Assembly (NCBI RefSeq): GCF_030384885.1
Contig: NZ_CP128613.1
Source: Escherichia coli
GTDB lineage: Bacteria; Pseudomonadota; Gammaproteobacteria; Enterobacterales; Enterobacteriaceae
DNA: 64,000 nt
Reading direction: 5' to 3' (one strand)
Below, in pieces: positions 26,762-29,636 of this stretch; the first letter of the stretch is position 1, and every line of letters begins with the position of its first letter. The notes under the pieces are model-generated. The model was not told the DNA's origin, did not search any database, and worked only from the letters and a program-made list of their open reading frames with translations. A program made the translations under genes and the position numbers.

Positions 26762-27217
26762 TCATTCGCTACGGCGGGCAATAATTTTTAGCGCAGCAAT
26801 ATTATGCGTTTTACGCCGTAACTGATCCAACCGTCTCATCCCTATTCGCCTGTCAGCGGCACGCAGAATATTCACTAACCCCCATTTATCGCTGGTAAAT
26901 TGTTTCGTTAACAGCTCCGCTTTTGGGGTATCAATATATTCACGCAATAAATCAGAAATTGAACAAATATCCGTCAGATAAGGATACCAGCAAGTTTCAC
27001 CATGAAAATTACGCACTCCACCATTGCCTGCCATAAAGTCTTTTGGGTAATCCCAGATCACGTCTTTATCCAACGTGATCCAATAACGCGGTAAATCGGT
27101 GCTTCCACCATTTTGGCTGCGCATGGGATAACGGGTACAGTGAATTTGCAGGTTGATCGTTGGCGTCAGTAAGTCATAAATCTCCCTCTGTAACTTGCTC
27201 CAGGGGCGTTGTGTCAT
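26762..27217 (-). CDS. Hypothetical cytoplasmic protein, 151 aa, unassigned family
   Basis: [35 protein letters not shown]...; no signal peptide or TM segment; its ATG (27215-27217) overlaps the stop of the upstream ORF as ATGA. Confidence 0.6.
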
Positions 27218-29493
27218 TGTTTTTCCTCAAGCCGATTACGCGCTTCACTGCGAATTTGCCGCGTTGCCCCGGTTTTCACTAAATCACGTAACTGCGAAAG
27301 ATCGGGCTGATCGACAAATAAGATTAATGATGGATCCTCTTTTAACCACGCCGTTTTCACATCGGCAGCCAACTGTGGATTATTAATAGCCAGCGCCCGA
27401 TCCTGTGACTCAGTCAATGTCGTTAACAAAGAGGCTGGGGTATGTACATTGCGCAACGCCGTCTGCCGCAAATGATCATTGTGACTTTTCAGCAATCCGC
27501 ACCACCATTCATCATCTGATTTATCTTTTATCGTATCCAGCTCCGCAAAAATATCGCTTTCCTCATGATTCCAGCGGTGTAATCCTCTTTCACTTTGTCT
27601 ACGGGTGCTATTTTTCATACTGACAATAGACAACGCCCAGTCGGAGTTAAAACGATACTGTTGATCGAGTTTGTTGATAATTCCGGAGGGTAAATCTTTA
27701 TTATCAAATAACTGGTTTCGCATCCGATAGCGGTATTCAGCAGGTAAATAAACCAGTAAATCGATAGCATTATTAAGCATCTCTTCGTCAATAATACCAT
27801 TATCAATCAGCGCCAGCTGTACTTCGTAGGCTTGCTCTTGATCTTCTTGCCGTTTACTCATCATTAATTTTAAGGTGTGTTGCCATAATTGTTTCTTATA
27901 CTCCAGAGGTAACAATTTATCGCGTGCCAGCTCATACCAGATGCTGGGAATGTCATGCTGATTCAGTAGATAACTAATCACTTCCTTCGAGGTCAGATAA
28001 CGCATGCCGTCACGTAAGTTGTGCACATCTTCTTTTGCCAAAGTCAGTTGACGCGACTCCGGCAAAGCGACCAATAACGCCTTCACGATATTTTTATTTT
28101 CTTTATTATCCAGATACATTTGTTCTGCGATACGTTCAACATCCTCTGTCCTCAGGGTCGCTGACAGTTGGGTGATTTTTAGTTCAGTAAGCGTCCGGGC
28201 TAATGCTTGACGAACTTTCAGCGATTTATCTTTACTCAACAACACCGCTTGTTGTGCGGTTAAATCGGTTCCGGTAATTCTTTCGCGTAACTCCGGATCT
28301 TCGCTATTTATCAATTCATCAACCACTGCAGTTGGAACCAGCCAGGCGTAATCGTAATGGCTGATTAATGTCTTGCGCACACTGAGAAAAGGGCTTTGAC
28401 TTAACGACACAACAATATCAGGAGAAAGATTATCCTGTCTGGCCTGCTCCAGCTGTACGCTCTCGACGGGTACAGACATTAATTTTTTATTCACTTCGGC
28501 GGATATATTGCTGTTTTTAACCAGTCCTCTGGCAACAGCTTCATCTTTAATTAATTCATCGGTAAGCAAATGCATGTGTTGAGCAGGCCAGGACTGCGCC
28601 ATTGATTCACGCGTCTGGTCATCAGGGTGCTGTAACAATTGCAGCATAACGGCGGTTGACAAACTTTCTATATGAGTCAGAAAACGTGCCACCAGTGGAT
28701 CTTCATGCTTTATTTTATCCGCAAGGAAATTATCGAGTTTCCCCGTTTCAATCCATTGTAATTTCTCATTAATTTCAGAAGCAGCTTTATCTCGAAAAAG
28801 AGGTAAACCCTGAACGATATTGTCTACGACGCTATCATAGTCAGGATACGCATTGGAAATATTATCGGTTTCGATTTCACTATGATCATAAAGATTAGGC
28901 GTCACCAGTGAATAGGATTTTTGAATATTCTCGTCCCAGTTATATTCTTCACCGCTTTCATCTTCATTGATATAAAACTCAGCTTTGATGACCTCAAATT
29001 GCGTTGCTTTATCGGAAACAATAATGCCTCGCGCGCTAATTCCTTTCATCACTTCAAAGTTGTGATCATTATAATCAGCATAAACCAAACCTTTCGCTGT
29101 CATCTGACCTTTCACATACGCGAAATCATGATTAATAAAGTTGTCGACAATAACATTACCTAATACAATCAGATGACCATTACCTGACAGATAATCATCA
29201 TAATCGCCGGAAATCGTTAAATTACCGTTCACCACCAGTTTATTTTGATTGCTGAAGTTAGCGGGTAATGATAGGTCACCATTATGATAATACCAGCGGA
29301 TATTATCTTTTAGCATATAAGCAGCTTCCATACTATCGTTGGTTGCCGCTTTAACCACGTTGCGCTCATCTGCCGTCATAAGATGAAAGTCAGAGGTGAT
29401 AAGGTCCTCGCTACTGATCCACTCTATGGCACATGCATTGCCAGTCATAAAAAACACGACCATACAGATGACCAATATATTAATTCTATTCAT
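27214..29493 (-). CDS. Hypothetical exported repeat protein, ~759 aa, unassigned family
   Basis: Long uninterrupted ORF; ATG at 29491-29493 gives [22 protein letters not shown], a Sec-type signal with an AXA-like cleavage site (an in-frame GTG lies 3 codons upstream at 29502). Coding DNA is visibly AT-rich compared with neighbours. Confidence 0.8.
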
Positions 29494-29636
29494 AATCTTC
29501 ACTGATATTTATATCAACCTTGATGAATTATGAATATATCGGAAATCGAAAAAATCGCAGCAAAGGAAATATTATTATGGGTTAAAGAGAGGATATTTCA
29601 GAAAAATGCCCTCCCGTTCAAGGGGAAGGCGGGGAA

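What the first reader, a model, noticed from the sequence alone, without database searches (positions are those of the whole stretch)
27214..29493. Exported ~759-aa protein with a beta-rich N-terminal module and LRV/HEAT-like C-terminal repeats
After a Sec-type signal peptide, the first ~170 residues show glycine-punctuated alternating hydrophobic runs ([38 protein letters not shown]) suggestive of a beta-helix or beta-solenoid. The remaining ~500 residues are acidic and alpha-helical with recurring motifs such as [37 protein letters not shown] and [35 protein letters not shown], which resemble leucine-rich-repeat-variant or HEAT-type repeats. I see no HEXXH, GxSxG or nucleotide-binding motif, so it looks like a binding or scaffold protein rather than an enzyme.
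Basis: inference. Interest (0 to 1): 0.65.

Follow-up and report, generated by a model that had tools for sequence, protein, structure and literature searches.

The report
Intact E. coli ykiA: exported repeat protein
This is a real gene for an exported protein with a beta-helix head and a long helical-repeat tail; it is the intact form of the E. coli K-12 pseudogene ykiA and a paralogue of YdbD, already annotated as "DUF2773 domain-containing protein", and its function is unknown.

Summary

The window is E. coli chromosome, and the gene lies between ppnP and rdgC. K-12 and about 92% of complete E. coli genomes have lost codons 1-646, leaving pseudogene ykiA. Intact copies are mostly in O157:H7. 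K-12 YdbD is a full-length paralogue (29% identity, E 3e-86). About 40 exported proteins with the same architecture exist in other bacteria, with no conserved gene neighbour.

The gene is under purifying selection (dN/dS 0.13-0.17; beta-helix 0.04-0.08) but diverges much faster than its neighbours. The K-12 promoter, 96% conserved here, is H-NS-repressed and BglJ-RcsB-activated.

It is most likely a dispensable periplasmic binding or scaffold protein. An enzymatic beta-helix is not excluded. RefSeq already annotates the gene, and its function is unknown. Interest is modest.

The parts
27214..29493 (-). CDS of the 759-aa protein (intact ykiA; RefSeq 'DUF2773 domain-containing protein'), stop codon included
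   Evidence: dN/dS 0.13-0.17 against other alleles
29428..29493 (-). Sec-type signal peptide, residues 1-22, predicted SPase I cleavage ACA|IEW
   Evidence: It is the only hydrophobic segment. There is no lipobox or twin-Arg motif. It is conserved in relatives and in YdbD. AF2 models it as a detached low-confidence helix.
29293..29427 (-). N-cap of the head module, residues 23-67: conserved Trp25 strand plus short helices
28966..29292 (-). Right-handed three-sided beta-helix of about 5 coils, residues 68-176, with conserved YDDY (98-101) and YND..FE (141-147) motifs
28714..28965 (-). Linker, residues 177-260: helices and the conserved G-x-P-x-F-R motif (R234 invariant). This motif is the end of the autonomous head module seen in stand-alone homologues.
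28234..28713 (-). LRV-like repeat block 1, residues 261-420 (short alternating helices, about 24-residue period)
   Evidence: The family profile hits 1LRV at E 2e-12 over this stretch. hhalign gives 96% for 261-340 vs 341-420. DSSP.
27559..28233 (-). Irregular HEAT/ARM-like alpha-solenoid, residues 421-645 (longer helical hairpins)
   Evidence: Foldseek hits to PP2A-A, importins and SF3B1; hhalign gives 95% for 261-340 vs 501-580
27217..27558 (-). LRV-like repeat block 2, residues 646-759. Pfam DUF2773 covers residues 679-759. This block is almost exactly the piece that survives as K-12 pseudogene ykiA (residues 647-759).
   Evidence: Pfam E 7.5e-39; hhalign 91% vs 341-420; K-12 comparison
29494..29636 (-). 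Own promoter region between ppnP and the gene. It contains the ppnP terminator-like hairpin (29608-29630) and a sigma70-like -35/-10 (29601-29574). It is 96.5% identical to the K-12 ykiA upstream region.
   Evidence: The K-12 ykiA promoter is BglJ-RcsB-activated and belongs to the set the paper discusses as H-NS/StpA-repressed (PMC3950696).
26762..27217 (-). Downstream SF0329-family gene (151 aa). It overlaps the stop of the large gene by 4 bp and is probably co-transcribed in E. coli, but it is not a conserved partner elsewhere.

Best explanation
The gene is the intact ancestral form of the E. coli K-12 pseudogene ykiA. It belongs to the YkiA/YdbD (DUF2773) family.

Shown: a Sec-type signal peptide; a compact N-terminal module built around a five-coil right-handed beta-helix; a roughly 500-residue alpha-solenoid with two LRV-like repeat blocks flanking a HEAT-like middle; purifying selection that is strongest on the beta-helix; frequent loss of the gene within E. 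coli.

Inferred: the protein is exported by Sec and cleaved after Ala22, giving an acidic soluble periplasmic protein of about 85 kDa (pI about 5). There it acts as a non-enzymatic adaptor. The beta-helix head recognises a ligand through a conserved acidic/aromatic corner (Y98-D-D-Y, N121-x-D123, Y141-N-D). The solenoid tail offers an extended surface for a protein partner.

By analogy with the near-identical K-12 promoter, expression is normally silenced by H-NS and switched on by BglJ-RcsB, that is, under particular envelope-related conditions. It is an accessory gene, not a core gene.
For: Identity and locus:
- The window is E. coli chromosome with the order rdgC - SF0329 gene - this gene - ppnP.
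- K-12 has pseudogene ykiA at this site, produced by deletion of window 27556-29494.
- The protein is 29% identical to YdbD over 745 aa, E 3e-86, and hits Pfam DUF2773 at E 7.5e-39.

Export:
- There is a single N-terminal hydrophobic segment with an AxA site.
- Equivalent signal peptides occur in most relatives and in YdbD.

Fold:
- AF2 gives pLDDT 91.3 and pTM 0.81 for the full length, and pLDDT 93.5 for the head.
- Foldseek matches HEAT/ARM scaffolds.
- The family profile hits 1LRV at E 2e-12.
- Internal repeats score 91-96% by profile-profile comparison.

No enzyme signature:
- Searches found none.

Selection:
- Omega is 0.13-0.17 overall and 0.04-0.08 in the beta-helix.
- Conserved columns cluster in the head.

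Regulation:
- The K-12 ykiA promoter is BglJ-RcsB-activated (PMC3950696).
- The upstream region is 96.5% identical here.
- The gene has 41.5% GC against 51% for the window.

Accessory status:
- The internal segment is present in only 446 of 5426 complete genomes.
Against: - No experiment localises the protein, and SignalP could not be run.
- No ligand or partner is known.
- No conserved gene neighbour was found in eight loci holding a homologue outside Escherichia, so nothing points to a pathway.
- The conserved acidic/aromatic residues on the beta-helix could be catalytic rather than binding residues.
- Some relatives lack a signal peptide and are fused to TPR repeats, so the core function does not depend on the periplasm.
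- YdbD has lost the YDDY and YND motifs, so the two paralogues may work differently.
Confidence: 0.55

Rival explanations
1. The beta-helix head is a carbohydrate-active module (a lyase, hydrolase, epimerase or lectin) that acts on peptidoglycan, LPS, ECA or an exopolysaccharide. The solenoid only positions it.
Confidence: 0.17
2. It is a bactofilin, that is, a polymer-forming cytoskeletal protein, as some database names say ('DUF2773 domain-containing bactofilin', 'polymer-forming cytoskeletal protein').
Against: Pfam Bactofilin does not match the query or any of 75 relatives scanned. The bactofilin PDB sequences are not hit by the head profile even at E 10. The protein has a signal peptide, whereas bactofilins act in the cytoplasm. 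In the model both ends of the beta-helix are covered by helices, which would block end-to-end polymerisation.
Confidence: 0.05
3. It is a secreted or surface adhesin or virulence factor of STEC lineages, like autotransporter passengers or tapirins.
Against: There is no beta-barrel translocator, TPS domain or LPXTG-type anchor. No secretion-system gene lies nearby. The homologues are in environmental bacteria such as Tahibacter and Pseudomonas. dN/dS is well below 1. K-12 keeps a full-length paralogue, YdbD, on its chromosome.
Confidence: 0.08
4. It forms a two-gene system (toxin/immunity or defence) with the overlapping SF0329-family gene.
For: The two genes overlap by 4 bp on the same strand. 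The same pairing occurs in a second enterobacterial contig, L010. The locus is variable.
Against: E. whittamii has the large gene without SF0329. P0005, P0006, P0008, P0009, P0014, P0018, P0020 and P0022 have no SF0329 neighbour. The SF0329 family is far more widespread than this protein and much more conserved, about 60% identity across phyla. PADLOC has no hit for either protein.
Confidence: 0.05

Closest known systems
E. coli K-12 YdbD (b1407), DUF2773 domain-containing protein
   Same: It is a full-length paralogue: 29% identity over 745 aa, E 3e-86. It has the same length class, a signal peptide, the same beta-helix plus solenoid layout, and the Pfam DUF2773 C-terminus. Papers describe YdbD only as methylglyoxal-induced or related to methylglyoxal susceptibility (Kim et al. 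2007, PMID 17846588, cited in PMC13313352; not read), and as induced 3.9-fold on sigmaE overexpression (PMC2731931).
   Different: YdbD has lost the YDDY and YND..FE motifs that are conserved in the wider family and kept here. It sits at a different locus, next to ynbABCD. YdbD is intact in K-12, whereas ykiA is a deletion remnant there.
E. coli K-12 pseudogene ykiA (b0392) and small protein YkiD
   Same: They occupy the same locus between ppnP and rdgC. The K-12 ykiA sequence corresponds to window 27188-27555 at 91.6% identity and the upstream region is 96.5% identical.
   Different: K-12 lacks codons 1-646. The window carries the complete gene and the complete SF0329-family gene, of which YkiD is a 27-aa in-frame remnant.
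Leucine-rich repeat variant protein of Azotobacter vinelandii (PDB 1LRV; Pfam LRV PF01816, LRV_2 PF25591)
   Same: The family profile aligns to the 1LRV repeats at E 2e-12. In A2, 4 of 42 members hit LRV and 6 hit LRV_2 at E<=0.001; 14 hit each at E<=0.1. The model shows short alternating helices with a period of about 24 residues.
   Different: The query itself does not reach any Pfam LRV threshold. From my own knowledge, 1LRV is a small cytoplasmic protein with an Fe-S cluster domain. This protein is exported, has only one Cys in the mature chain, and carries a beta-helix head instead.
Bactofilins (BacA 2n3d, Thermus bactofilin 6ria; Pfam PF04519)
   Different: There is no sequence-profile match. 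This protein is exported, its helix ends are capped, and it is fused to a 500-residue solenoid.
HEAT/ARM scaffold proteins (PP2A A subunit, importins)
   Same: Both have an elongated alpha-solenoid of helical hairpins (Foldseek E about 1e-6). Such proteins are typically binding platforms.
   Different: The TM-scores are only 0.1-0.3 and identity is 10-16%. This is generic repeat-fold similarity, not homology. The Pfam HEAT hit has E 9.9.

Membership tests
YkiA/YdbD family (Pfam DUF2773, PF10971) | Match to the PF10971 model | tested here: met
   i-Evalue 7.5e-39; residues 679-759 cover model positions 1-81 of 81
YkiA/YdbD family (Pfam DUF2773, PF10971) | Full-length similarity to the named member YdbD | tested here: met
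   BLASTP 29% identity over 745 aa, E 3e-86
YkiA/YdbD family (Pfam DUF2773, PF10971) | Orthologous position to K-12 ykiA (between ppnP and rdgC) | tested here: met
   Annotated gene order; blastn of the K-12 locus against the window
Sec-exported protein (SPase I signal peptide) | Positively charged n-region, hydrophobic h-region of 10-15 residues, small residues at -3/-1, no lipobox or twin-Arg | tested here: met
   MNR / [13 protein letters not shown] / TGNACA|I. The pattern is conserved in relatives. This is a heuristic check only; SignalP was not available.
Sec-exported protein (SPase I signal peptide) | Demonstrated periplasmic or extracellular location | not testable with these tools
   Needs fractionation or PhoA/Bla fusions
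Leucine-rich repeat variant (LRV; PF01816, PF25591; 1LRV) | The protein itself matches the Pfam LRV or LRV_2 models | tested here: not met
   No LRV hit even at E<=10 for the query
Leucine-rich repeat variant (LRV; PF01816, PF25591; 1LRV) | The family profile is homologous to the LRV repeats | tested here: met
   The A2 profile hits 1lrv_A at E 2.1e-12. At E<=0.1, 14 of 42 relatives hit LRV and 14 hit LRV_2; at E<=0.001 the numbers are 4 and 6.
Leucine-rich repeat variant (LRV; PF01816, PF25591; 1LRV) | Statistically supported internal repeats | tested here: met
   hhalign between family segments gives 96%, 95% and 91%. Single-sequence self-BLAST is negative.
HEAT repeat proteins (PF02985, PF13646) | Pfam HEAT match | tested here: inconclusive
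   The query hits HEAT only at E 9.9. One relative hits HEAT_2 at 2e-6. Foldseek hits HEAT/ARM scaffolds at E about 1e-6 but with TM 0.1-0.3.
Bactofilin (PF04519) | Sequence-profile match to the bactofilin domain | tested here: not met
   No hit in the query, in 42 full-length relatives or in 33 head-domain relatives. The bactofilin PDB chains are not hit at E<=10.
Bactofilin (PF04519) | Right-handed triangular beta-helix fold | tested here: met
Bactofilin (PF04519) | Cytoplasmic, polymerises end-to-end | tested here: not met
   Signal peptide; helices cap both ends of the beta-helix in the model. Polymerisation itself cannot be tested here.
Autotransporter / two-partner-secretion adhesins | C-terminal beta-barrel translocator or N-terminal TPS domain | tested here: not met
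   No such Pfam domains. The C-terminus is all-helical.
Known anti-phage defence systems (PADLOC) | Match to any PADLOC model | tested here: not met
   0 families for both genes at E<=1

The most novel reading that the evidence does not exclude
The N-terminal module (residues about 25-240: cap, five-coil beta-helix, G-x-P-x-F-R motif) would be a previously unmodelled, autonomous beta-helix domain. It has no Pfam match and occurs alone or fused to LRV, TPR, LRR or WGR scaffolds. Its conserved acidic/aromatic corner would be a genuine ligand-binding or catalytic site for an envelope component. That would make the YkiA/YdbD family a new class of periplasmic sensors or modifiers tied to the Rcs/BglJ and sigmaE envelope responses.
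Probability: 0.15. Interest if true: 0.5.

Novelty: already known. Interest (0 to 1): 0.27.

Why it matters
The result adds no new kind of system. Its value is in cleaning up annotation of a protein family.

- The K-12 pseudogene ykiA, and the Pfam family DUF2773 that covers only the last 81 residues, are the tail of a 759-aa exported beta-helix/LRV protein. That protein is intact in O157:H7-type strains.
- K-12 YdbD is its full-length paralogue.
- The head module has no profile model in Pfam.
- The family has dozens of exported members in other bacteria, and its function is untested.

If someone wants to study YdbD or the BglJ-RcsB regulon, this intact allele keeps the ancestral motifs and is the better starting point.

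Tried and rejected
Searches that gave nothing useful:
- NCBIfam, PADLOC, PHROGs and PDB sequence searches with the single protein gave nothing beyond DUF2773.
- Self-BLAST for repeats found nothing. The repeats appear only with family profiles.
- The word-indexed homologue search found only 6 clusters, and repeating it with the 42-sequence profile added none. The exhaustive HMMER search was needed to find the family.
- The genome-contig scan failed with A2 because no stretch was conserved enough. With A1 it returned only two Escherichia loci and one partial Deinococcus MAG hit, so the taxonomic spread rests on a few named proteins.
- The literature holds nothing on DUF2773 or on exported LRV proteins. 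The primary paper for the YdbD-methylglyoxal link is not held.

Gene neighbourhoods:
- I inspected eight loci holding a homologue outside Escherichia and found no conserved partner.

Ideas rejected:
- A toxin/immunity or defence pair with SF0329.
- A bactofilin cytoskeletal role.
- An autotransporter-type adhesin.
The reasons are given under the rival explanations.

Full report
**What is at the coordinates**

The window is Escherichia coli chromosome. The region reads araJ - mak - rdgC - [151-aa gene] - [759-aa gene] - ppnP - aroM - yaiA - aroL. It is 99.9% identical to strain 2013C-4282.

The ORF at 27214..29502 (-) has a GTG at 29502 and an ATG at 29493. There is no HExxH, GxSxG, Walker A, lipobox or twin-arginine motif.

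**Relation to K-12**

At the same position, MG1655 has pseudogene ykiA (342 bp) followed by the 27-aa gene ykiD. Aligning the two loci shows that K-12 lacks window 27556-29494, which is codons 1-646 of the large gene. It also lacks most of the downstream 151-aa gene. The upstream intergenic region is 96.5% identical.

The internal segment is present in only 446 of 5426 complete E. coli genomes. Most of these are O157:H7 and related STEC, carrying an allele about 93% identical. The window's own allele (at least 95% identity) is in 18 genomes. The gene is therefore an accessory gene that has decayed in most of the species.

**Signal peptide**

The only strongly hydrophobic stretch is at residues 4-22. 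It follows the n/h/c pattern: [22 protein letters not shown]. Ala sits at -3 and -1 and there is no lipobox.

When upstream starts are used, the 49%- and 25%-identical relatives have equivalent peptides. So do the paralogue YdbD and most of about 40 full-length relatives. In these the AxA site typically lies one to three residues before a conserved Trp. AF2 models residues 2-16 as a detached low-confidence helix.

Export is therefore well supported by sequence but has not been shown experimentally. The mature protein would be 737 aa, about 85 kDa, with pI about 5 and a single Cys.

**Structure**

With a 42-sequence family alignment, AF2 gives mean pLDDT 91.3 and pTM 0.81. The model has these parts:
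- short cap helices (residues 28-60);
- about 16 short strands (68-176);
- a helical linker (186-260);
- an all-helical remainder (to 758).

Left-handed hexapeptide helices score similarly but with rmsd about 12. From the strand pattern, the head is a three-sided helix of about five coils with 17-22 residues per coil.

No Pfam family matches this module. That holds for the query, for 33 head-domain relatives and for 42 full-length relatives. No PDB sequence matches its profile.

The full-length model matches PP2A-A, importins, SF3B1 and designed ARM proteins with Foldseek (E about 1e-6, TM 0.1-0.3). This is generic alpha-solenoid similarity.

**Repeats**

The single sequence shows no self-similarity by BLAST. 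Its only Pfam hit is DUF2773 at residues 679-759.

At family level the repeats are clear:
- The 42-sequence profile hits the leucine-rich repeat variant structure 1LRV at E 2e-12.
- Among the relatives, 4 hit Pfam LRV and 6 hit LRV_2 at E<=0.001, and 14 hit each at E<=0.1.
- Profile-profile comparison of segments gives 96% for 261-340 vs 341-420, 95% for 261-340 vs 501-580, and 91% for 341-420 vs 671-759. The head matches none of them.

The tail is therefore LRV block 1 (261-420), an irregular HEAT-like middle (421-645) and LRV block 2 (646-759). The Pfam "DUF2773" domain is simply the last repeats of block 2. It lies inside the piece that survives in K-12.

**Family**

An exhaustive HMMER search finds 3883 proteins at E<=1e-3 and 95 at E<=1e-30. 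These include about 40 proteins of 750-820 aa that align end to end. Many weaker hits share only the LRV repeats.

Named members come from Tahibacter, Pseudomonas, Halopseudomonas and Escherichia. A sub-group has no signal peptide and carries C-terminal TPR repeats. Stand-alone head modules of about 200 aa also exist. They end at the conserved G-x-P-x-F-R motif and mostly keep the YDD(Y) and YND motifs, so the head is an autonomous unit.

The AFDB search showed an E. coli paralogue named "DUF2773 domain-containing bactofilin" or "protein involved in detoxification of methylglyoxal". This is YdbD (b1407), 768 aa. It has a signal peptide and is 29% identical over 745 residues (E 3e-86), but it lacks the YDDY and YND..FE motifs.

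What the papers I could read say about YdbD is thin:
- It was induced 3.9-fold on sigmaE overexpression and is described as "induced by methylglyoxal" (PMC2731931).
- It is possibly involved in methylglyoxal detoxification, citing Kim et al. 2007, PMID 17846588, which I could not read.
- It was reported as weakly expressed yet important for fitness in one Tn-seq study.
- It is a ChIP-exo target of YciT.

**Genomic context and evolution**

None of the eight loci I inspected that hold a homologue outside Escherichia shares a neighbour with the E. coli locus. One Pseudomonas contig has two tandem paralogues.

The downstream SF0329-family gene overlaps the stop codon by 4 bp. A second enterobacterial contig also has the pair. 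E. whittamii lacks SF0329, and so do all the distant homologues. It is therefore not an obligatory partner.

The large gene diverges far faster than its neighbours:
- Against E. whittamii it is 72% identical, compared with 92-99.7% for aroM, ppnP and rdgC.
- In contig L010 it is 32% identical, compared with 86% for ppnP and 79.5% for SF0329.

It is AT-rich in every enterobacterial host examined, at 42-44% GC. Even so, it is under purifying selection. dN/dS is 0.17 and 0.13 against two other alleles. The beta-helix is the most constrained (0.04 and 0.08) and the linker and C-terminus the least (0.16-0.25). Conserved columns cluster in the head, along with invariant R234 and D265.

**Regulation**

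A terminator-like hairpin follows ppnP at 29608-29630, and a sigma70-like promoter lies at 29601-29574.

In K-12 the ykiA promoter is one of ten loci activated by BglJ-RcsB, and a binding site was mapped by mutagenesis. The same paper treats these loci as H-NS/StpA-repressed (PMC3950696). ynbA, the gene next to ydbD, is another target in that paper. Because the upstream DNA is nearly identical, the same control probably applies here. This is an inference.

**Interpretation**

The most likely function is a periplasmic, non-enzymatic adaptor. The conserved beta-helix head would recognise a ligand through the acidic/aromatic corner formed by residues 98-101, 121-123 and 141-143 on successive coils. 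This register is deduced from the strand pattern, not from coordinates. The LRV/HEAT solenoid would bind a protein partner. The gene would be expressed only when H-NS silencing is relieved.

I give this about 0.55. A carbohydrate-active head gets about 0.17. Adhesin, bactofilin and SF0329-pair readings get under 0.1 each.

**Novelty**

The gene is annotated in RefSeq and modelled in AFDB (A0A2X5QEV0, 96% identical over the head). It belongs to a named family of unknown function. The kind of protein is not new.

The useful results are the link between the K-12 pseudogene, the DUF2773 model and YdbD, and the recognition of an unmodelled beta-helix head domain.

Noticed in passing
window 26762-27217 (-): The SF0329-family gene (151 aa; PF25753, NF049912) overlaps the large gene's stop by 4 bp. 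Its family is very widespread (550 clusters) and unusually conserved, about 57-68% identical to proteins named from Leminorella, Prevotellaceae, Bradymonadia, Paenibacillus and Zoogloeaceae. Its function is unknown.
   Followed up: partly
window 26824-27187, compared with L002 4948-5031: The K-12 small protein YkiD ([27 protein letters not shown]) was shown to be synthesised by epitope tagging (PMC6001520). It is an in-frame deletion remnant that joins the first 11 and last 16 residues of the SF0329-family protein. The two BLAST segments overlap by 8 bp at the junction, which suggests microhomology.
   Followed up: partly
window 27556-29494, compared with L002 4605-4609: The K-12 ykiA deletion starts just upstream of the ATG and ends at codon 646, so it places the surviving 113 codons directly behind the original promoter. 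Pfam DUF2773 (81 positions) lies wholly inside this remnant.
   Followed up: yes
L011 7145-14202 (K-12 ydbD-ynbABCD): The paralogue ydbD lies immediately upstream of ynbABCD. Both ynbA and ykiA are BglJ-RcsB-activated promoters (PMC3950696), so the two paralogous loci may share regulation.
   Followed up: no
L010 102-3377: An enterobacterial contig has the same ppnP - large gene - SF0329 arrangement. There the large protein is only 32% identical, while ppnP is 86% and SF0329 is 79.5% identical. This points either to very fast divergence or to replacement by a distant allele.
   Followed up: partly
L005 5977-8424: Escherichia whittamii has the large gene (72% identity) directly next to rdgC, with no SF0329 gene.
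   Followed up: yes
L015 3581-8307: A Pseudomonas MAG carries two tandem paralogues of the family (764 and 768 aa).
   Followed up: no
proteins P0084, P0099, P0120 (no locus): A cytoplasmic sub-family has the same head plus LRV repeats, no signal peptide, and a long C-terminal TPR extension. AFDB also shows the head fold fused to WGR/MolR-like, LRR and TPR proteins in Bacteroidota.
   Followed up: partly
hit H50, NZ_CP182139.1 1255876-1257116: In one E. coli genome the large gene is interrupted by an IS1B element. This is another route of decay at the locus.
   Followed up: no
window 29608-29630 (-): A strong terminator-like hairpin (GCCTTCCC...GGGAGGGC followed by a T-run) sits right after ppnP. 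It separates ppnP from the large gene's own promoter.
   Followed up: no
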